This document shows, piece by piece, positions 3,558 to 41,868 of a stretch of DNA of 42,114 nt (positions are counted from its first letter, which is position 1; every line of letters starts with the position of its first letter). The position numbers were made by a program, and so were the translations under genes. A model generated the notes under the pieces. The model saw nothing but the letters and a program-made list of their open reading frames with translations. It ran no database searches and was not told the DNA's origin. The DNA is from a virus (Duplodnaviria; Heunggongvirae; Uroviricota; Caudoviricetes): IMG/VR virus record IMGVR_UViG_2585427728_000007. One strand, written 5' to 3'.

Positions 3558-4753
3558 GAGGTCACCGTGATAGTGACGTGACTCGCAACGCATGACGCAG
3601 ATTCGTCATAAGCAATATCGATATTTCCGCTTGCGACTGAGTCAGAGGATTTGCCGATGAGCAGCTCCTGAATGTCGTAATAGCGAGCACTGCCTCCGCT
3701 TACCACGCCAAGGTTTGCCGGGGAATAAATACGACTCAGCAGAACGTCATCGCCAATTGCCAGGCCATTTATATAATCGGCAACAGCCTGTTTAATCTGC
3801 TCGCCGATTTGAGAGGTATAGCCGGTAAAAACTTTCAGGGTAATGGCTACGAAAATTGGCACATCGGTAGAGCGCGAAAAACTGATGACGTGTGGATTAC
3901 CGTAAGTATCCGGCACCGTGACAGAAGTTTTACCGTAAGTTGCGGTTCCCTGCCCTTTACTCCCCCGGATTGTTTGGGCTATCTCGGTAACATCCCCTCC
4001 ATCGACGATGGCGGAAATAGAGTGTGGCGGCAGCCCGTTGCTGTCGGTTGCCCCAGTGTCGTTCTCATATAGTTTGTGACGTGTCACGCCAGCAACATTA
4101 GCGATAGCACCGTCGACACCTTCAAACGGTGTGATCGATGGTAGCGCGACGCTTTGCCCCTGCCGAATGCGCAGCTCTGCGTCGGTTTCGGCTGGTGAAC
4201 CGACAGTAGCCGCAACTGGATTGGTTACCGACACCCAACCTCGGGTCGGGGTGTTGATAGTGGTAATAGTCCCGGCCAGCGCCGCAACCGAACCGCTATT
4301 CGCACATGTGGCCGTCACCAGCACAGTACCATCAACGCCGATCGCCACACTCGCTGGAAAATTCCAGATAATGCCGTTTTTATCCCGTGCGGAGCCATTC
4401 GTGATAGTCGTGCCTGCCGTACCGGTTAACAGAAGGTCAGCAGTAGAGTTTGTCGCTACTTTTCGCGTGATCCCGTTAATTTTCACATTGTTGCTAAGCG
4501 CTGCGGCCTGCGCTGTCGTCGGTGAAAAAGAGTTGTAGATCTCGATAGCGGTATTGTTAGCGTCATGCACCGCAAGAGCCACCAGCGCGACCATTTGCCC
4601 ATCTTTGCTGTCTGGTTCGAGGTAGGCATCACTACCGTAAATCTGCCTGAAATAGCTGGTCAGTGTATCAAGGATTGTCTGGTAATCAGGCGCACTAATC
4701 CCCTGGGCGGTTACCGTTGCCGATAGCCCCAGCGTGTCGAGGTTCAAAGCCAT
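3554..4753 (-). CDS. Baseplate J-like protein (Mu gp47 / P2 gpJ family)
   Basis: 399 aa; size, composition and position (after W-like, before I-like and fiber) typical of baseplate J family proteins of contractile-tail phages. Confidence 0.7.
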   Translation of the reverse strand: MALNLDTLGLSATVTAQGISAPDYQTILDTLTSYFRQIYGSDAYLEPDSKDGQMVALVALAVHDANNTAIEIYNSFSPTTAQAAALSNNVKINGITRKVATNSTADLLLTGTAGTTITNGSARDKNGIIWNFPASVAIGVDGTVLVTATCANSGSVAALAGTITTINTPTRGWVSVTNPVAATVGSPAETDAELRIRQGQSVALPSITPFEGVDGAIANVAGVTRHKLYENDTGATDSNGLPPHSISAIVDGGDVTEIAQTIRGSKGQGTATYGKTSVTVPDTYGNPHVISFSRSTDVPIFVAITLKVFTGYTSQIGEQIKQAVADYINGLAIGDDVLLSRIYSPANLGVVSGGSARYYDIQELLIGKSSDSVASGNIDIAYDESASCVASHVTITVTS

Positions 4754-24460: not shown

Positions 24461-24536
24461 TGGTGCTGGTTAACGGACTTGAACCGCTACCCATTCGCTT
24501 ACAAGGCGACCGCTCTACCATTGGAGCTAAACCAGC
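24461..24536 (-). tRNA. tRNA, anticodon TGT (Thr) by manual fold
   Basis: Minus-strand 76 nt GCTGGTT-TA-GCTC-CAATGGTA-GAGC-G-GTCGC-CTTGTAA-GCGAA-TGGGT-AGCGG-TTCAAGT-CCGTT-AACCAGC-A-CCA; perfect 7 bp acceptor stem, GTTCAAGTC T-loop, U33 and A37 flanking TGT, encoded CCA. Confidence 0.65.
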
Positions 24537-24541
24537 ATGTT

Positions 24542-24616
24542 TGGCGGGACAGCGTGGACTCGAACCACGATAAGAAGGTTAACAGCCTTCCGTAATGACC
24601 TTTATACGACTGACCC
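24542..24616 (-). tRNA. tRNA, anticodon GTT (Asn) by manual fold; atypical D-arm
   Basis: Minus-strand 75 nt GGGTCAG-...-GAAGG-CTGTTAA-CCTTC-TTAT-CGTGG-TTCGAGT-CCACG-CTGTCCC-G-CCA; perfect anticodon and T stems, GGTTCGAGTCC T-arm, one T-T mismatch in the acceptor stem, D-loop lacks the usual GG. Confidence 0.55.
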
Positions 24617-31638: not shown

Positions 31639-31684
31639 TCGCTTTGTCAGCGACGTAGGACGAATGTCCATTGTGAAAAGAGCG
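31639..31684 (-). promoter_or_regulatory. nutR candidate: boxA (CGCTCTTTT) and boxB hairpin (UCGCU-GACAA-AGCGA)
   Basis: Minus-strand boxA-like CGCTCTTTT at 31684..31676, eight nt after the cro stop; boxB-like hairpin at 31653..31639 with a 5 bp stem and GACAA loop. The 22 nt boxA-boxB spacer is longer than in lambda. Confidence 0.55.
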
Positions 31685-31925: not shown

Positions 31926-31936
31926 TAGTGCCTCCG

Positions 31937-32020
31937 TTTATCATACAGAATAACTTTACCATTTTGATAAATCAACCGCAATGTAAATTTATCATATTGC
32001 GTATTTATCCATTTGCTAAA
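31937..32020. promoter_or_regulatory. Right operator region (oR) with pR / pRM; repeated TTTATC-N5-GATAAA sites
   Basis: 17 bp sites TTTACCATTTTGATAAA (31955-31971) and TTTATCCATTTGCTAAA (32004-32020), plus half-sites at 31937 and 31988; candidate pR on the minus strand has -35 TTGATT (31975..31970) and -10 TATTCT (31952..31947) bracketing the first site. Confidence 0.55.
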
Positions 32021-32038
32021 TAGAGGGAAAATTGTGAG

Positions 32039-32743
32039 ATGGAAAACAAAGATATTCGCAAATCGAATCTGGCGTTTTTGCTAGATGAGCATAAAAAAAT
32101 CGCGGGTAACACTAATGCAAGCTTTGCCGATAAGCTTGGGGTTAGCCCTTCTCAACTCACGCAAGTCTCCGGTGAAAAAAGCACTCGAAACATAGGGGAT
32201 AAACTAGCAAGAAAATTTGAAGCCGCACTTGGGTTACCTAATGGGTGGCTTGATTTGGTACATGATGTAACACCAATTGCATCATGCTCAGATTCTTTAA
32301 CTTTTGTCGGTCAGGTAAGAAAAGGGTTAGTGCGCGTGGTTGGTGAGGCAATTCTTGGTGTTGATGGTGCCATCGAGATGACCGAAGAGCGCGATGGGTG
32401 GCTCAAAATTTATAGCGATGATCCAGATGCCTTTGGCCTTCGTGTGAAAGGAGACAGCATGTGGCCTAGAATAAAATCAGGAGAATATGTACTCATTGAG
32501 CCTAACACCAAAGTATTCCCGGGTGATGAGGTGTTTGTCAGAACCGTTGAAGGACACAACATGATTAAGGTTCTTGGCTATGACAGAGATGGAGAATACC
32601 AATTTACAAGCATCAACCAAGACCACAGGCCAATAACGTTGCCTTATCATCAAGTAGCAAAGGTGGAGTATGTGGCTGGTATTCTGAAGCAATCTCGCCA
32701 TCTGGATGACATCGAGGCAAGGGAGTGGCTGAAAAGTTCGTGA
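32039..32743 (+). CDS. cI: CI-type repressor (N-terminal HTH, C-terminal S24 LexA-like peptidase domain)
   Basis: 234 aa; HTH around FADKLGVSPSQLTQV; C-terminal domain with the Ser (GDSMWP) and Lys (MIKVLG) of the autocleavage dyad; divergent from cro. Confidence 0.9.
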   Translation: MENKDIRKSNLAFLLDEHKKIAGNTNASFADKLGVSPSQLTQVSGEKSTRNIGDKLARKFEAALGLPNGWLDLVHDVTPIASCSDSLTFVGQVRKGLVRVVGEAILGVDGAIEMTEERDGWLKIYSDDPDAFGLRVKGDSMWPRIKSGEYVLIEPNTKVFPGDEVFVRTVEGHNMIKVLGYDRDGEYQFTSINQDHRPITLPYHQVAKVEYVAGILKQSRHLDDIEAREWLKSS

Positions 32744-32812: not shown

Positions 32813-33253
32813 ATGAGAGAAGAAAAAATAATAACAATCTACACAACGGCGGTAAAACCCGGGCTGGCAATCACTCCTTTTATGACACCAGATCCTATAA
32901 TAGTGTCGGAAGAATACCCTTGTTCCGGCTCATTTTACCTAACTGCAATAATGTACTTCGAGCACGAAAAAAAATACACTACCGAACTTGATGTCGTATT
33001 CAATGGAGAATCGGTTTTACCTGATATCTCTAGCAATCAAGAGCAACTGCAAACATTTATGTTTTCTCCTGTCAATGAAAAATATGTTGTGGTTGGCACA
33101 TATCTTTTCGTTAAAAACATCAAACTTATAGAAACAGGAACATATGACATAATTTATCGCATCTTTGAAGACATTGATGGTAATCTTAGCGAAGTTATTG
33201 ATGAAAAAAAATGCGCTCTTATTTCAACCACCCCGAACAGAGATAAGGAATGA
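32813..33253 (+). CDS. Hypothetical protein, first gene of the cI-adjacent accessory cassette
   Basis: 146 aa; AT-rich coding sequence; ATG preceded by AAGGA; no terminator between the cI stop and this gene; no recognisable domain. Confidence 0.6.
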   Translation: MREEKIITIYTTAVKPGLAITPFMTPDPIIVSEEYPCSGSFYLTAIMYFEHEKKYTTELDVVFNGESVLPDISSNQEQLQTFMFSPVNEKYVVVGTYLFVKNIKLIETGTYDIIYRIFEDIDGNLSEVIDEKKCALISTTPNRDKE

Positions 33254-33606
33254 AACGACATCTGTACGCTGTGCCTCTTGACAGGAGTAAAGTTGATAAT
33301 TTTCCACATAACCACCATAATGATGAGACATATGGTGGTGGTAACGGTGGAGGTGGTGACATGTTACAGCGCATAAAAATTCTTGAAGATAAAGTCGCAA
33401 CCATGGCGACCGACATCGCTGTAATTAAGTCTAACTATGCAACATCTGCCAATGTAGAATCTGTTAAAACAGACATAGCTAATGCAAAAGCAGAACTTCA
33501 CAGCGCAATGAGACTCCAAGCCATGGCTATTATTGGTTCAGTTCTTGCAGCCGTTGGAACTGGTGTTGGGTTAATAATAAAAATGATGCCATCACTACCT
33601 CACTAA
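33250..33606 (+). CDS. Hypothetical membrane-anchored coiled-coil protein, second gene of the cassette
   Basis: 118 aa; ATGA overlap with the upstream gene; Gly-rich stretch YGGGNGGGGD, predicted coiled coil (LQRIKILEDKVATMATDIAVIKSN...VKTDIANAKAELHSAMRLQ) and a single C-terminal hydrophobic helix AMAIIGSVLAAVGTGVGLIIKMM. Confidence 0.6.
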   Translation: MKRHLYAVPLDRSKVDNFPHNHHNDETYGGGNGGGGDMLQRIKILEDKVATMATDIAVIKSNYATSANVESVKTDIANAKAELHSAMRLQAMAIIGSVLAAVGTGVGLIIKMMPSLPH

Positions 33607-33616
33607 GAATCTACAC

Positions 33617-33644
33617 AACCCGGCCTCAGCGCCGGGTTTTCTTT
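33617..33644 (+). terminator. Rho-independent terminator ending the cI-cassette operon
   Basis: AACCCGGC-CTCAGC-GCCGGGTT followed by TTCTTT, beginning 11 nt after the stop of the 118 aa gene. Confidence 0.65.
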
Positions 33645-33822
33645 GCCTCTCGATCCCCCACCTAAAAAACATAACTCATTGTATTTATTGAAAAACTGAT
33701 TGATACAACTTGCTAAACCACGCAATCCAGATCTCCCTCAAATCTCTTTATTTATCCTGTCGAATTCCTACAACAAAATAAAACACCATAAGAATCAATA
33801 CGATATTTGAAAATCAAAAGAA

Positions 33823-33866
33823 TTTATCATTTTGCTATTGCCATTAATTTATCATTCCGATAAAGT
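33823..33866 (+). promoter_or_regulatory. Left operator region (oL) with pL candidate
   Basis: 17 bp site TTTATCATTCCGATAAA (33848-33864) with perfectly inverted outer hexamers, plus a weaker site at 33823-33839, same motif as at oR; candidate pL -35 TTGCCA (33838-33843), 17 bp spacer, -10 TAAAGT (33861-33866), overlapped by the operator. Confidence 0.5.
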
Positions 33867-33934
33867 TTGCCCATCAGCAGGACGCACTACTCACCAGGGC
33901 GGTGAATATACAACGATTCGAATATGAATCTACG

Positions 33935-33949
33935 GCGCTGACAAAGCGC
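33935..33949 (+). promoter_or_regulatory. nutL boxB hairpin (GCGCU-GACAA-AGCGC)
   Basis: GCGCTGACAAAGCGC: 5 bp stem with GACAA pentaloop, the P22-type boxB as recalled; lies between pL and the N-like gene. No clear boxA identified. Confidence 0.6.
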
Positions 33950-34210
33950 AATAACCAAAGTGAACTTTGGGGTGTGGTGAAGCCAGCTAGTCACTGGCAA
34001 GTGCTTACCTACTGTTGAGCGGTGAAGCGCTCCCAACGCTAGCAATAGCGTGGACGAGATGGGGAGCCGCGGGCGATAAGGCCGCCATAACGCGCACGTT
34101 GTCGCATGGAAAAATCACTGGGGTGCCGGTTATACCCCTCCGAATGAGACTCAACAAGCTGGAGCTAGACTACCAGCCACCACACCACCAAAGTTCATCA
34201 GGAGGTCTAT

Positions 34211-34594
34211 ATGACACGCAGAACTCAGTTCAAAGGCAATTCACGTTCTCGTCGTCGTGAGCGTTTAAAGGCAAAGGCATTAGCTAACGGCGTACTGGCC
34301 CGCGAAGAAGCAATAAGTTCAGAAGTATTACACCGCCCTACTCTAAGCAGAGCGCAGATTCAGGCTAAAGGTACTCACGAAACGCCTGAGCGCATAGAAG
34401 ACGCTAAGCCAATTAAGTTCATGGCACAGGACGTGATCTGGCAACAGAAAGAATACAGACGCAATCTGGAGCGAGTGGCCATTGTGTACGCGAATGAGTT
34501 TGGACATAAGCAACCAGAAACTGGTGTATGTCTTCCAAACGTAGCCATTTACGCGGCAGGCTACCGGAAATCAAAACAACTGACAGCAAGATGA
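34211..34594 (+). CDS. N: N-like transcription antiterminator (P22 gp24-type)
   Basis: 127 aa; N-terminal arginine-rich motif GNSRSRRRERLKAKALA; C-terminus LPNVAIYAAGYRKSKQLTAR resembles P22 N as recalled; first gene downstream of pL/nutL; GGAGG Shine-Dalgarno. Confidence 0.65.
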   Translation: MTRRTQFKGNSRSRRRERLKAKALANGVLAREEAISSEVLHRPTLSRAQIQAKGTHETPERIEDAKPIKFMAQDVIWQQKEYRRNLERVAIVYANEFGHKQPETGVCLPNVAIYAAGYRKSKQLTAR

Positions 34595-34653
34595 CTTGTG
34601 TTGGTCGCCAGAAAATGAAATTAGGCAGTAAGCTACTGTATGAGGGGTGAGAT

Positions 34654-34842
34654 ATGCATAAATGTCAGTTCTGTGGATACATGTTTGAATCAAATGAAAT
34701 GCAACGTATTTCGTTAAACCTTATCGGTAGGCCATACAACATTTGCCTAGGATGTAGCGAGAAATACAAAAACAAAGACATGTGGGACGACAATAAAAAC
34801 GATATCGACTGGAATAAAGTGCCATGTATTGATGATAGTTAA
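34654..34842 (+). CDS. Hypothetical small zinc-ribbon protein (early-left accessory gene)
   Basis: 62 aa with two CxxC pairs (C5/C8 and C31/C34); AT-rich; GAGGGGTGAG before the ATG. Confidence 0.5.
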   Translation: MHKCQFCGYMFESNEMQRISLNLIGRPYNICLGCSEKYKNKDMWDDNKNDIDWNKVPCIDDS

Positions 34843-34922
34843 AAATAATTATGCCGCATAGTCGGCCTTCTTTTGGCATAAACAACAGAATAAACACTGC
34901 ACTGAATTATTTGAGGTGAGAT

Positions 34923-35393
34923 ATGACAAAATCATGGAGCGTACCTTTTCCTGAATCAGAAACTGAACATGATGGAATGCCTGTTTTCTGGAGATTCCAA
35001 GCGACAGTTGAAGAAGATGGAATCAAAATATTCGCACTTCAATATATAGCTTTTCATCAGACAGAGCATTATGCATGGTTGGTTCCTGCGCATTGGATTG
35101 TTAATTTTAAACCAGCACCAAATCAGTGGTTACAGGAATGGAAACAAAGGAGAAATAGATATGCAATTAAGAAAGTAGCAAAAAATGCAGAAAGATCTTT
35201 TGCGTTCCCGACGAAGAAACTTGCCATTGAAAGTTTATTGCGCCGGAAGAAATACCATTTGATGAGAATCAAACAAGATTTGGCTGTTGTATCAACTCTT
35301 GTTGATGGGATGAAGAATATTGATACATCAACACCAGATATTGAATATAACTTTGGACACAACCAAGAAACAGAAAATTGGGTGTTTTATTAG
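34923..35393 (+). CDS. Hypothetical protein (early-left accessory gene)
   Basis: 156 aa ORF in an AT-rich block; translation-initiation region (TGAGGTGAGATATG) nearly identical to that of the preceding small gene; no recognisable domain. Confidence 0.5.
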   Translation: MTKSWSVPFPESETEHDGMPVFWRFQATVEEDGIKIFALQYIAFHQTEHYAWLVPAHWIVNFKPAPNQWLQEWKQRRNRYAIKKVAKNAERSFAFPTKKLAIESLLRRKKYHLMRIKQDLAVVSTLVDGMKNIDTSTPDIEYNFGHNQETENWVFY

Positions 35394-35497
35394 TATGAAT
35401 AAGCACTGTGTATTCATTCCAACGAGTGAATACACGGAGCAATGTCGCTCGTAACTAAACAGGAGCCGACTTGTTCTGATTATTGGAAATCTTCTTT

Positions 35498-35524
35498 GCC
35501 CTCCGATGTGAGGGCGATTTTTTT
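35498..35524 (+). terminator. Rho-independent terminator in the pL operon
   Basis: GCCCTC-CGATGT-GAGGGC followed by GATTTTTTT, ending 13 nt before the ATG of the coiled-coil gene. Confidence 0.55.
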
Positions 35525-35536
35525 GATGGAGGATAT

Positions 35537-36505
35537 ATGAGTGAAGTAACAGATTTAGTTGTTATTGAAAAAGCAAATGCAATGACTGTATTTCAGTCTG
35601 CCGACCAGATTGAAGAAATCCTTCAAAAGGTTGAACGTGAAGTTATGTCCTTTGTGCCTGATATCACAACGGCAAAGGGCAGAAAGGAGATCGCTTCTCT
35701 GGCGTATAAAGTTGCGCAGACGAAAACATATCTCGATGGTCTTGGAAAAGACCTTGTTGCTGAACTGAAGGAAATTCCAAAGCTAATTGATGCCAACCGC
35801 AAGACAGTGCGTGATCGCCTTGATGAGCTGAAATCCAAGGCACGCCAGCCTCTTACTGATTATGAGGAGGAACAGGCACGGATTAAAGCCGAAGAAGAAG
35901 CTAAGGCAGCAGCTGAAGCTCTCGCAAAGCAAATTGAGTCTGACCATGAAATAGCTATTTTGATGGATTGCGAATTTGACCGCCAAAGAGAAGAGGCAAG
36001 ACTCAAAGCGGAGCAGGAAAAGCGAGAGCATGAAGAACGCTTAAAAAGAGAAGCTGAAGAGAAAGCCAGAGCAGAAGCCGAAGCAAAGGCAAAAGCCGAA
36101 ATTGAAGCAGCAGCAAGGCGAGAAGCAGAAGCTAAGGCCGCAGCGGAACGTGCAGAGCGTGAACGTATTGAAGCCGAGCAACGAGCACAGCGCGAAGCAA
36201 AAGAGGCAGCAGAACGAGCTGAAAGAGAAAAGCAGGCGGCAATTGAAGCAGAACGCCGAAAAGCACAGGAGGAGGCTGAACGAATCCGGCGCGAGGCTGA
36301 AGCAAAAGAGCAAGCCAGAATAGCAGAAGAAAAAAGAATCAAGGAAGAAGAAGAGTGTAGAGCAAAGGATAAAGCTCACCGGAAAGAAGTAAATAACAAA
36401 ATACTTGCTGACCTTATCAAGGTTGGCGCATCAGAAGATGTTGCTAAAAATATCATAACAGCCATCGTAAAAGGCGAAGTATTCGCAACAAAAATAACCT
36501 ACTAA
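35537..36505 (+). CDS. Hypothetical charged coiled-coil protein (TolA-like Ala/Glu/Lys/Arg-rich repeat region)
   Basis: Start taken at ATG 35537 (MSEVTDLVVIEK...) with GGAGG; the longer ORF-track start would translate through the terminator; about 200 aa of AEAKAKAEIEAAARREAEAKAAAERAERE-type low-complexity helix. Confidence 0.55.
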   Translation: MSEVTDLVVIEKANAMTVFQSADQIEEILQKVEREVMSFVPDITTAKGRKEIASLAYKVAQTKTYLDGLGKDLVAELKEIPKLIDANRKTVRDRLDELKSKARQPLTDYEEEQARIKAEEEAKAAAEALAKQIESDHEIAILMDCEFDRQREEARLKAEQEKREHEERLKREAEEKARAEAEAKAKAEIEAAARREAEAKAAAERAERERIEAEQRAQREAKEAAERAEREKQAAIEAERRKAQEEAERIRREAEAKEQARIAEEKRIKEEEECRAKDKAHRKEVNNKILADLIKVGASEDVAKNIITAIVKGEVFATKITY

Positions 36506-41336: not shown

Positions 41337-41405
41337 TGGCTAACCTGCAACTTGCCGTCAAAGGTGAATAACAATCCTCGCATTCGCGGGGATTTCTTTT
41401 ATCTG

Positions 41406-41429
41406 AACTCGCTACGGCGAGTTTTATTT
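41406..41429 (+). terminator. Rho-independent terminator
   Basis: ACTCGC-TACG-GCGAGT followed by TTTTATTTT. Confidence 0.5.
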
Positions 41430-41443
41430 TATGGAGACAAGAA

Positions 41444-41788
41444 ATGTCAGATTTGGCTATGAAGGTTTTGAAATGGCAATCGACTGGCGATGTTGGCATC
41501 AGTAGCGCAACTCTTGCCTCAATCGCATGTGGACTGAAAAAGAATATCTATGGTCATCACTTCGGCGCTCCCCATGACGCAGCCGATTTCAGACGATGCG
41601 TTGCACTTGTTGAGCAGATCCCAGAAATCAGAGATTCATTCGACAAGGTTGCAAAGCGCGTTCCGGCATTCAAAGGCATCCTCAACGAATGGGATTCCCT
41701 CGTTGATCTGTTGAAGTCTGAAATGAAGATACACGGAAACAAAGCACCAGAGACTTACAGAAGAATTAGCGAGTTACGCAAGGACTAA
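41444..41788 (+). CDS. Hypothetical protein
   Basis: 114 aa ORF with GGAGACAAGAA before the ATG. Confidence 0.45.
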   Translation: MSDLAMKVLKWQSTGDVGISSATLASIACGLKKNIYGHHFGAPHDAADFRRCVALVEQIPEIRDSFDKVAKRVPAFKGILNEWDSLVDLLKSEMKIHGNKAPETYRRISELRKD

Positions 41789-41793
41789 CCACA

Positions 41794-41822
41794 GCCTCAC
41801 ACTCGATGAGGCATTTTCATTT
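41794..41822 (+). terminator. Rho-independent terminator (first of a tandem pair before the xis-like gene)
   Basis: GCCTCA-(7 nt loop)-TGAGGC followed by ATTTTCATTT. Confidence 0.5.
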
Positions 41823-41847
41823 ATCAAGATATCCAGACCTACCATCG

Positions 41848-41868
41848 CCGCATCAATGCGGTTTTTTT
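41848..41868 (+). terminator. Rho-independent terminator (second of the pair)
   Basis: CCGCA-TCAA-TGCGG followed by TTTTTTT. Confidence 0.55.

What the first reader, a model, noticed from the sequence alone, without database searches (positions are those of the whole stretch)
33823..34594. pL / oL / nutL with P22-type boxB and an N-like antiterminator carrying an arginine-rich motif
Upstream of the N-like gene there is an operator with perfectly inverted hexamers (TTTATCATTCCGATAAA) overlapping a candidate pL, and 70 nt further a GCGCUGACAAAGCGC hairpin with the GACAA pentaloop of P22-type boxB. The encoded protein has an N-terminal arginine-rich motif (RSRRRERLKAKA) as expected for boxB binding. 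No convincing boxA was found near nutL, which is unusual.
Basis: partly seen in the sequence, partly recalled or inferred. Interest (0 to 1): 0.45.

Follow-up and report, generated by a model that had tools for sequence, protein, structure and literature searches.

The report
H-19B-type pL/nutL/N antitermination module
This is the ordinary early-left control region of a lambda-like prophage with phage H-19B immunity: a repressible promoter, an RNA hairpin site and the small N protein that binds it to let RNA polymerase ignore terminators. The missing "boxA" is real, but it is a described trait of this phage group.

Summary
Window 33823-34594 holds oL2/oL1, pL, nutL and an N gene.

- **Match to H-19B.** The repressor is 100% identical to H-19B cI. 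The oL/pL/nutL DNA is about 99% identical to H-19B, and N is 97% identical to H-19B N, which has been studied experimentally.
- **boxB.** GCGCUGACAAAGCGC is identical to P22 nutL boxB. Its 13-nt core occurs exactly twice in the window, once after pL and once after cro (nutR), with 0 expected by chance.
- **boxA.** nutR has boxA CGCTCTTTT. nutL has none. Of seven N/nutL classes sampled from viral contigs, only the H-19B class lacks it. [quoted passage not shown]
- **Spacer hairpin.** Both nut sites carry a spacer hairpin between conserved ACAA(C/U) and UACG motifs.

The 260-nt leader between nutL and N is closed by a long-range helix (33961-33979 with 34178-34197). This helix is homologous to the structured, RNase III-modulated N leader of lambda and is strongly supported by covariation. 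Its 198-nt interior is a cassette shared with phage Sf6, not H-19B.

Novelty: already known. Interest: low.

The parts
32039..32743 (+). cI repressor (234 aa, S24 peptidase C-terminal domain). It is predicted to bind oL and oR.
   Evidence: Pfam Peptidase_S24 E 3.8e-16. 234/234 identical to H-19B cI.
33617..33646 (+). Intrinsic terminator that ends the cI-moron (pRM) transcript, just upstream of oL.
   Evidence: 8-bp stem with 6 GC pairs followed by TTCTTTG. Conserved in H-19B. The equivalent element is annotated tM in 933W.
33823..33839 (.). oL2, the weaker operator copy TTTATCATTTTGCTATT. It overlaps the first two bases (33838-33839) of the -35 hexamer of pL.
   Evidence: 3 mismatches to the operator consensus. 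Identical in H-19B.
33848..33864 (.). oL1, TTTATCATTCCGATAAA. It lies between the -35 and -10 hexamers and overlaps the -10.
   Evidence: 1 mismatch. Identical in H-19B.
33838..33866 (+). pL promoter: -35 TTGCCA (33838-33843), 17-nt spacer, -10 TAAAGT (33861-33866). The predicted +1 is A33873.
   Evidence: It is the only promoter-like site in 33400-36000. It aligns with lambda pL TTGACA/GATACT and with the lambda transcript start ATCAGCAGG.
33883..33891 (+). CGCACTACT, a weak boxA-like nonamer (5/9 to CGCTCTTTA). The 933W record starts its nutL feature here. It is not a convincing boxA.
   Evidence: Lambda has the same motif (CGCACTGAC) upstream of its real boxA.
33892..33904 (+). Small 5' hairpin CACC-AGGGC-GGUG, shared with lambda (CACC-AUGAA-GGUG).
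33915..33930 (+). nutL spacer hairpin GAUUC-GAAUAU-GAAUC, flanked by ACAAC and UACG. This is the H-19B-type 'alternative NUT structure'.
   Evidence: Fold (z -3.65 for 33908-33952). Variants change the loop but not the stem. A different stem sits at the same place in nutR (GGAC/GUCC) and in Sakai-type nutL (GUCGA/UCGAC).
33935..33949 (+). nutL boxB, GCGCUGACAAAGCGC, with a GACAA pentaloop.
33955..33970 (+). Local hairpin CCAAAG-UGAA-CUUUGG. It competes with the long-range helix for CUUUGG.
   Evidence: Equivalent hairpins occur in P22 (CCAAAC/GUUUGG) and lambda (CAAAGC/GCUUUG).
33961..33979 (+). 5' arm of the N-leader basal helix. It contains the boxC-like GGGGUGUGGUG.
   Evidence: MFE fold. 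Covariation.
33980..34177 (+). Variable interior of the leader hairpin, of the Sf6/HK544/mEp213 type and not the H-19B type.
   Evidence: 99.6% identical to Sf6 and relatives. Unrelated to the H-19B interior. No Rfam match, and its ORFs have no PHROG match.
34178..34197 (+). 3' arm of the basal helix, CACCACACC-A-CCAAAGUUCA, with bulged A34187. It ends 2 nt before the Shine-Dalgarno sequence.
34200..34205 (+). Shine-Dalgarno AGGAGG of N.
   Evidence: Sequence.
34211..34594 (+). N antiterminator, 127 aa. The ARM is about residues 9-23 (GNSRSRRRERLKAKA). The C-terminal module is LPNVAIYAAGYRKSKQLTAR.
34591..34650 (+). Remnant of a lambda/21-type N C-terminal tail, read in the -1 frame: MTCVGRQKMKLGSKLLYEG*. 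Its ATG overlaps the N stop codon.
31639..31684 (-). nutR: boxA CGCTCTTTT (31684-31676), spacer hairpin GGAC-AUUC-GUCC (31669-31658), UACG, and boxB UCGCUGACAAAGCGA (31653-31639).
35496..35525 (+). First strong intrinsic terminator downstream of N in the pL operon, and a likely target of N.
   Evidence: 8-bp stem followed by TTTTTTT. HK97 annotates a terminator at the equivalent position.

Best explanation
This is the early-left regulatory module of a lambdoid prophage that carries phage H-19B immunity.

**In the lysogen.** cI (32039-32743) binds oL1 and oL2, which overlap pL, and so keeps pL off.

**After induction.**
1. RNA polymerase starts at about 33873 and transcribes nutL.
2. N is translated from 34211.
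3. The arginine-rich N-terminus of N binds the GACAA-loop boxB hairpin on the nascent RNA.
4. Together with NusA on the hairpin-containing spacer, N is held at the polymerase through its C-terminal module.
5. This makes elongation resistant to the terminators downstream, at 35496 and at 41373-41868. The same happens on the rightward operon from nutR.

**Role of boxA.** As in H-19B, the reaction at nutL does not use a boxA/NusB/S10 contact.

**Role of the leader.** The long leader helix brings nutL next to the N ribosome-binding site. By homology with lambda it is the RNase III-sensitive structure that modulates N translation.

**Shown here:** the sequence elements, the homologies, the folds and the covariation.
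**Inferred from the literature on H-19B, P22 and lambda:** binding, Nus factor requirements, RNase III cleavage and read-through.
For: - **Identity with H-19B.** cI is 100% identical. oL/pL/nutL is about 99% identical. N is 97% identical.
- **The protein family.** Pfam N_peptide and PHROG 271.
- **The promoter.** pL is the only promoter-like site and aligns with lambda pL and its +1.
- **The operators.** The operator family is confined to oR and oL.
- **boxB.** It is identical to P22 nutL boxB. A second copy at nutR has a compensatory closing pair, G-C changed to U-A.
- **ARM and boxB co-vary across N classes**.
- **Spacer hairpin.** It is present at nutL and nutR with unrelated stems, between conserved ACAA(C/U) and UACG.
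- **Missing boxA.** All 16 H-19B-class nutL copies in IMG/VR lack boxA. The other six classes have it.
- **Experiments in the literature.** H-19B N antitermination was reconstituted with N, NusA and NusG only, and boxA was not protected in footprints (PMC3526286). The title of Neely & Friedman 2000 (PMID 11123680) is cited.
- **Leader helix.** 96% of cells are paired, 9 of 15 pairs show compensatory changes, and 0 of 500 shuffles reach this.
- **Lambda precedent.** N translational repression from nutL through a highly structured leader, with RNase III modulation, is described in PMC5725501.
Against: - No experiment was done on this sequence.
- The leader interior differs from that of H-19B, so N expression levels could differ.
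- The claims that BOXA is dispensable and that NusB/S10 are not needed rest on my recollection of the abstract of a paper I could not open. They are supported by indirect evidence from PMC3526286.
- A sequence search of the PDB gave no significant hit, so the ARM-boxB fit rests on alignment only.
Confidence: 0.93

Rival explanations
1. nutL works in the classical lambda/P22 way. The weak nonamer CGCACTACT (33883-33891), or another degenerate boxA, recruits NusB/S10, and the 43-nt gap to boxB is shortened by the two intervening hairpins.
For: The 933W record starts its nutL feature at this motif. Two hairpins between it and boxB could bring the two elements together. nutR of the same phage has a good boxA.
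Against: The motif matches only 5 of 9 positions. Lambda and Sf6 have the same conserved leader motif upstream of their true boxA, so it is inherited pL-leader sequence and not a boxA. H-19B N works in vitro without NusB/S10, and boxA is not protected in footprints (PMC3526286).
Confidence: 0.05
2. The module is a decayed prophage remnant. The swapped leader or other changes have inactivated N expression, so the elements are present but non-functional.
For: The leader interior is a foreign, Sf6-type cassette. PGAP did not annotate N in one E. coli genome with the identical segment.
Against: The N ORF is intact and 99.2% identical to N of sequenced Stx1/Stx2-converting phages. The promoter, operators, Shine-Dalgarno sequence, boxB and both helix arms are intact. 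The same Sf6-type cassette serves lambda-type N genes in sequenced phages such as Sf6 and HK544.
Confidence: 0.04
3. The GCGCUGACAAAGCGC hairpin is a chance hairpin or a terminator stem and is unrelated to N.
For: The relaxed pattern search (up to 3 mismatches) is not enriched as a whole: 4 hits against 2.0 expected.
Against: The exact 13-nt core occurs twice with 0 expected, precisely at the nutL and nutR positions. It is identical to P22 boxB. No T-run follows it. The boxB type co-varies with the ARM type across phages.
Confidence: 0.01

Closest known systems
Phage H-19B early-left region (AF034975: cI, oL/pL, nutL, N)
   Same: cI is 100% identical. The region from the terminator through oL, pL and nutL (33617-33975) is about 99% identical. 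N is 97% identical. The spacer hairpin, the boxB and the absence of boxA at nutL are the same.
   Different: The interior of the N-leader hairpin is replaced: about 65 nt in H-19B against 198 nt of unrelated, Sf6-type sequence here. The genes between cI and the terminator differ, and so does the gene after N.
Phage P22 gene 24 / nutL
   Same: boxB is identical, GCGCUGACAAAGCGC. The ARM cores are similar, GN(S/A)(R/K)(S/T)RR(R/H)ER. The C-terminal module is shared, with 20/30 residues identical. The leader basal helix has the same geometry.
   Different: P22 has a canonical boxA, CGCTCTTTAAC, 9 nt upstream of boxB and no spacer hairpin. gp24 is 100 aa and its central part is unrelated.
Phage lambda pL-nutL-N with its RNase III-modulated leader
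   Same: The gene order, the position of pL, the start of the transcript, the small 5' hairpin, the boxC-like 5' arm, the long-range helix ending next to the N ribosome-binding site, and the bulged purine in that helix are all shared.
   Different: Lambda boxB has a GAAGA loop. Lambda has boxA CGCTCTTAA. Lambda N is only about 25% identical and keeps the C-terminal tail ITCSGRQKIKGKSIPLI in frame.
Phage Sf6 / HK544 / mEp213 N leader
   Same: The leader interior and both helix arms (33965-34193) are 99.6% identical.
   Different: Those phages carry a lambda-type nutL (boxA plus a GAAGA boxB), a lambda-type N and 434-type operators.

Membership tests
Lambdoid N / nut antitermination system | Small basic protein with an N-terminal arginine-rich motif that belongs to the N family. 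| tested here: met
   Pfam PF25694 E 3.1e-15 (56.9 bits against a cut-off of 27.9). PHROG 271 E 1e-38. ARM at residues 9-23.
Lambdoid N / nut antitermination system | First gene of the leftward early operon, downstream of a repressor-controlled pL and next to cI. | tested here: met
   The order is cI, terminator, oL/pL, nutL, N. pL and its +1 align with lambda.
Lambdoid N / nut antitermination system | boxB hairpin in both early transcripts (nutL upstream of N, nutR after cro). | tested here: met
   Copies at 33935-33949 (+) and 31653-31639 (-). The core occurs twice with 0 expected, and the closing pair differs by a compensatory change.
Lambdoid N / nut antitermination system | boxA (CGCTCTT(T)A) a few nucleotides 5' of boxB. 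| tested here: not met
   nutR has CGCTCTTTT. nutL has nothing better than 3-4 mismatches out of 9. This holds for all 16 H-19B-class nutL copies, whereas the six other classes have it.
Lambdoid N / nut antitermination system | N- and boxB-dependent read-through of downstream terminators. | not testable with these tools
   Candidate terminators lie at 35496 and at 41373-41868. The function has been shown experimentally for the 97%-identical H-19B N (PMC3526286, PMC4499122).
P22-type boxB / ARM pair | 5-bp stem with a GACAA pentaloop. | tested here: met
   15/15 identical to P22 nutL boxB. Fold.
P22-type boxB / ARM pair | ARM similar to the P22 N peptide (GNAKTRRHERRRKLAIER). | tested here: met
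   GNSRSRRRERLKAKALAN aligns with it. Six of the first 10 residues are identical and the other four are conservative changes. Binding itself was not tested. A PDB sequence search gave no hit.
H-19B-type NUT site (alternative NUT RNA structure, reduced host-factor need) | Dyad symmetry (a stem-loop) in the spacer 5' of boxB. | tested here: met
   nutL has GAUUC/GAAUC and nutR has GGAC/GUCC, both between ACAA(C/U) and UACG. The sequence is identical to H-19B.
H-19B-type NUT site (alternative NUT RNA structure, reduced host-factor need) | Independence from NusB/S10 and from boxA. | not testable with these tools
   Inferred from the absence of boxA and from the literature on H-19B. The primary paper is not held.
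Lambda-type N leader (RNase III-modulated translational control) | Long-range helix between the boxC region just 3' of nutL and the sequence just 5' of the N Shine-Dalgarno sequence. | tested here: met
   MFE folds of 10 leaders. Covariation on 17 distinct arm pairs: 96.1% paired, 9 of 15 pairs compensatory, 0 of 500 shuffles, and slid controls 50% paired or less.
Lambda-type N leader (RNase III-modulated translational control) | Cleavage by RNase III and N-dependent translational repression. | not testable with these tools
   Known for lambda (PMC5725501, citing Wilson 1997 and 2002). Not tested for this class.

The most novel reading that the evidence does not exclude
The hairpin in the N leader may be a modular regulatory cassette. 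Its arms are invariant (boxC-like CUUUGGGGUG... pairing with ...CCAAAG next to the Shine-Dalgarno sequence) and serve both as the RNase III/translation-control helix and as recombination linkers. Its interior is freely exchanged among phages: 33 to about 200 nt in at least eight unrelated types. Each interior type might set a different level or condition of N synthesis. In the boxA-less H-19B class, any N autorepression from nutL would also have to work without the boxA/Nus contacts that lambda uses. None of this is excluded by the data. It is an extension of known lambda biology rather than a new kind of system.
Probability: 0.15. Interest if true: 0.35.

Novelty: already known. Interest (0 to 1): 0.12.

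Why it matters
This is mainly useful as a clean annotation. It identifies the prophage as immunity-H-19B with an H-19B/HK97/933W-type N, the class that controls early gene expression in many Shiga-toxin phages.

The comparative by-products have modest value:
- The H-19B class is the only one of seven sampled N/nutL classes without a boxA at nutL.
- The N-leader helix is conserved by covariation across all classes, while its interior is swapped like a cassette.

No open question is resolved by this window.

Tried and rejected
- **Rfam.** A gathering-threshold scan of the whole window and a permissive scan of 33600-34700 found no RNA family for nut or the leader. Only two tRNAs and one chance hit (E 2.4) on the terminator stem appeared.
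- **PDB.** A sequence search with N gave only chance-level hits to ribosomal protein L25 (E 0.4) and no hit to lambda or P22 N entries.
- **Degenerate boxA.** Nothing within 2 mismatches of CGCTCTTTA lies in the leader. The only 2-mismatch hit is to the lambda form CGCTCTTAA (CGCTCCCAA, 34028), inside the exchangeable Sf6-type interior. GCGCAATAACCA (33946-33957) matches the rrn boxA at 8 of 12 positions, but it overlaps the boxB stem. My own binomial estimate expects about one such match by chance in a leader of this length. It is also absent from the g341c and Salmonella SF6 relatives, so I rejected it.
- **ORFs inside the leader.** The ORFs at 34015-34260 (+) and 34005-34157 (-) have no PHROG match. 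I treat them as spurious.
- **Programmed -1 frameshift into the lambda/21-type tail after the N stop.** No X XXY YYZ slippery heptamer occurs in the last 15 codons (inspection output). The tail is better explained as a mosaic remnant.
- **Papers not available.** I could not open Neely & Friedman 2000, Wilson 2002 or Wilson 1997. One literature query failed because a term was too short.

Full report
**Observation.** The region was read directly.
- TTTATCATTCCGATAAA lies at 33848-33864 and a degenerate copy at 33823-33839.
- The operator pattern TTTATCANNNTGATAAA (up to 3 mismatches) hits 7 times in 42 kb against 1.95 expected. None of 100 shuffles reached 7. Five of the seven hits lie in the cI-cro intergenic region or here.
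- The only sigma-70-like site between 33400 and 36000 is TTGCCA-17-TAAAGT at 33838-33866. It overlaps both operators.
- GCGCTGACAAAGCGC lies at 33935-33949 and folds as a 5-bp stem with a GACAA loop.
- The ORF 34211-34594 encodes 127 aa, with RSRRRERLKAKA at residues 12-23 and an AGGAGG 5 nt upstream.

**What it is.**
- The protein matches Pfam N_peptide (E 3e-15) and PHROG 271 'anti-termination protein N-like' (E 1e-38).
- tblastn against 50,697 phage records gives 97-99% identity to N of HK97, BP-4795, 933W-like Stx phages and H-19B (H-19B is 97%). Identity is 85% to 66% with Salmonella P22-like phages and 39-42% with Sakai-type N. Alignment gives 40% with P22 gp24.
- The adjacent repressor is 234/234 identical to H-19B cI. 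oR is 98% identical.
- The stretch from the terminator at 33617 through oL, pL and nutL to 33975 is about 99% identical to H-19B.
- The window as a whole is a mosaic P22/Sf6-like lambdoid genome. No single phage record covers more than 47% of its right-hand 25 kb.

**Anatomy of the pL transcript.** An alignment with lambda, Sf6 and H-19B shows the shared transcript start ATCAGCAGGACGCACT. This puts +1 at about 33873, 7 nt after the -10 hexamer.

Then follow, in order:
1. A small hairpin, CACC-AGGGC-GGUG, shared with lambda.
2. The sequence AAUAUACAAC, at the place where lambda has boxA CGCUCUUAA.
3. A spacer hairpin, GAUUC-GAAUAU-GAAUC (33915-33930).
4. UACG.
5. boxB.

On the other strand, after cro, nutR reads boxA CGCUCUUUU, then CACAAU, then hairpin GGAC-AUUC-GUCC, then UACG, then boxB UCGCUGACAAAGCGA.

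The boxB core CGCTGACAAAGCG occurs exactly twice in the window (0 expected). The closing pair differs by a compensatory change, G-C against U-A.

boxB of nutL is 15/15 identical to P22 nutL boxB, read from NC_002371.

**boxA.**
- In the 341-nt leader the best matches to CGCTCTTTA have 3-4 mismatches.
- The 933W GenBank record starts its nutL feature at CGCATTACT, which corresponds to window 33883. That motif matches 5 of 9 positions. It is also present in lambda and Sf6 upstream of their true boxA. It is therefore inherited leader sequence and not a boxA.
- A degenerate-pattern scan of IMG/VR returned 120 loci with N genes of seven ARM classes.
- Every class has GCTCTT(T)AA a few nucleotides 5' of boxB, except the H-19B class. 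All 16 anchored copies of that class (6 sequence variants) read GGTGA(A)TATACAAC instead.

[quoted passage not shown] I could not open the paper. From memory, its abstract reports three things:
- NusA is required, but NusB and S10 are not.
- BOXA is dispensable.
- There is a dyad symmetry in the spacer.

Consistent with this, H-19B N antitermination was reconstituted with N, NusA and NusG only. Footprints showed protection of the spacer and boxB but not of boxA (PMC3526286).

**Spacer hairpin and ARM/boxB matching.**
- The architecture ACAA(C/U), stem-loop, UACG, boxB recurs with unrelated stems. These are GAUUC/GAAUC (H-19B-class and Salmonella nutL), GGAC/GUCC (this nutR) and GUCGA/UCGAC (Sakai-type nutL, which does keep boxA).
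- Within the H-19B class the loop varies (GAAUAU, AAGCAA, AAAUAU) while the stem is constant.
- Across classes the ARM changes together with the boxB loop:

| ARM motif | boxB loop | Phages |
|---|---|---|
| GN(S/A)(R/K)(S/T)RR(R/H)ER | GACAA | this window, H-19B, P22 |
| TSRARRRER | C-GUCAA-C | SPN9CC |
| (A/S)A(G/S)RRR(E/A)RRA | UGAAAA | g341c, Salmonella SF6, Sakai type |
| MDAQTRRRERR | GAAGA | lambda, Sf6 |

This supports the ARM-boxB recognition model by comparison, though not by experiment.

- There are 261 nt between boxB and the N start codon. This stretch folds with z = -4.1.
- The fold is closed by a long-range helix, 33961-33979 with 34178-34197. A34187 is bulged. The helix ends 2 nt before the Shine-Dalgarno sequence.
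- The same basal helix, with a bulged purine at the same position, appears in the MFE folds of the lambda, Sf6, H-19B, HK97, 933W, SPN9CC, g341c, Salmonella SF6 and P22 leaders. Their interiors are 33-191 nt of unrelated sequence.
- On 17 distinct arm pairs, 96.1% of cells are paired and 9 of 15 pairs show compensatory changes. None of 500 shuffles reaches the observed values, and slid controls are 50% paired or less (a 7-sequence version is).
- One caveat applies. The arms were anchored on CCAAAG and (C/G)T(T/G)TGG, and four mis-anchored or differently shaped leaders were left out.
- The 5' arm is the boxC-like GGGGUGUGGUG.

In lambda, nutL-bound N and Nus factors repress N translation across a 'highly structured' leader, and RNase III modulates this (PMC5725501, citing Wilson 1997 and 2002). 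In rrn operons boxC likewise forms one strand of the RNase III helix (PMC8632103). By homology this helix is the RNase III and translation-control element. Cleavage was not tested.

**Mosaicism.**
- The interior plus arms (33965-34193) is 99.6% identical to the leader of Sf6, HK544, HK446, HK633, mEp213 and mEp043. Those phages have a lambda-type nutL and N. The interior is unrelated to the H-19B interior.
- The switch points fall inside the shared arm sequences CTTTGGGGTG and CCAAAG.
- The exact junctions are present at 100% identity in six complete E. coli records, five of them chromosomes, one of which was checked in detail. No isolated-phage record covers 80% or more of 33600-34650.

**After the stop codon.**
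- The -1 frame reads MTCVGRQKMKLGSKLLYEG, which is homologous to the lambda N tail ITCSGRQKIKGKSIPLI.
- In IMG/VR this tail is the in-frame C-terminus of lambda-, 21-, 'NARN'- and P22-ARM N genes (64 loci). It lies out of frame behind the stop codon in the H-19B and Sakai classes (56 loci).
- It is best read as a remnant and recombination linker left when the P22-type C-terminal module was joined on. No slippery site for frameshifting is seen.

**Downstream.** Terminator-like sites on the + strand lie at 35496-35525 (strong, intergenic), 41373-41424 and 41794-41868.

**Verdict.** The finding is real and correctly interpreted. It is a well-characterised system: H-19B immunity, an H-19B-type nutL and an H-19B/HK97-type N. 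The novelty rating is 'already known'. The only departures from the published H-19B sequence are a swapped leader cassette and different neighbouring genes, which is ordinary lambdoid mosaicism.

Noticed in passing
window 34591-34650 (+): Overlapping the N stop codon (ATGA), the -1 frame encodes MTCVGRQKMKLGSKLLYEG. This is homologous to the C-terminal tail of lambda and phage 21 N. In IMG/VR the same tail is in frame in 64 N genes (lambda, 21, NARN and P22-ARM classes) and out of frame behind the stop in 56 (H-19B and Sakai classes). It is probably a mosaic remnant or recombination linker. Expression as a coupled 19-aa peptide is not excluded.
   Followed up: partly
window 33961-34197 (+): The N leader is a hairpin with covariation-supported arms and an exchangeable interior. 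The interior here is 99.6% identical to that of Sf6, HK544 and mEp213, which have a different nutL and N. At least eight unrelated interior types (33 to about 200 nt) sit between the same arms in other phages.
   Followed up: yes
window 33955-33970 (+): The local hairpin CCAAAG-UGAA-CUUUGG uses the same CUUUGG that forms the base of the long-range helix with CCAAAG at 34188-34193. The two pairings are therefore mutually exclusive. Equivalent local hairpins with compensatory changes exist in P22 (CCAAAC/GUUUGG) and lambda (CAAAGC/GCUUUG).
   Followed up: partly
window 31926-32038: oR appears to hold four TTTATC-type operator copies, at 31937, 31955, 31987 and 32004, whereas oL holds two. From memory, an unusual operator count was reported for H-19B (Shi & Friedman 2001), but I did not check this.
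   Followed up: no
window 32813-33606 (+): Two ORFs (146 and 118 aa) lie between cI and the terminator, in the position of lambda rexAB. They are not shared with H-19B, because homology starts only at about 33615. The first has no Pfam or PHROG match. The second has only weak matches to PHROG families of unknown function and ends in a hydrophobic segment. They are moron or exclusion-gene candidates.
   Followed up: no
window 24461-24616 (-): Two adjacent tRNA genes, tRNA-Thr(TGT) and tRNA-Asn(GTT), lie in the late-regulatory/lysis region on the rightward operon strand.
   Followed up: no
L003 (E. coli ABWA45 chromosome) 4248-4630: In a RefSeq genome that carries the identical leader, PGAP annotates no N gene. 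It annotates only a 69-nt 'regulator, incomplete' pseudogene at the 3' end, which is probably the out-of-frame lambda-type tail. N of this class can therefore be missed by automatic annotation.
   Followed up: no
L007 (Salmonella phage SPN9CC) nutL: SPN9CC N is 85% identical to the window N, with ARM changes N10T and S13A. Its nutL boxB reads GCUCC-GUCAA-CGAGC, with a C-C closing mismatch like P22 nutR. This may be a natural specificity variant of the GACAA class.
   Followed up: no
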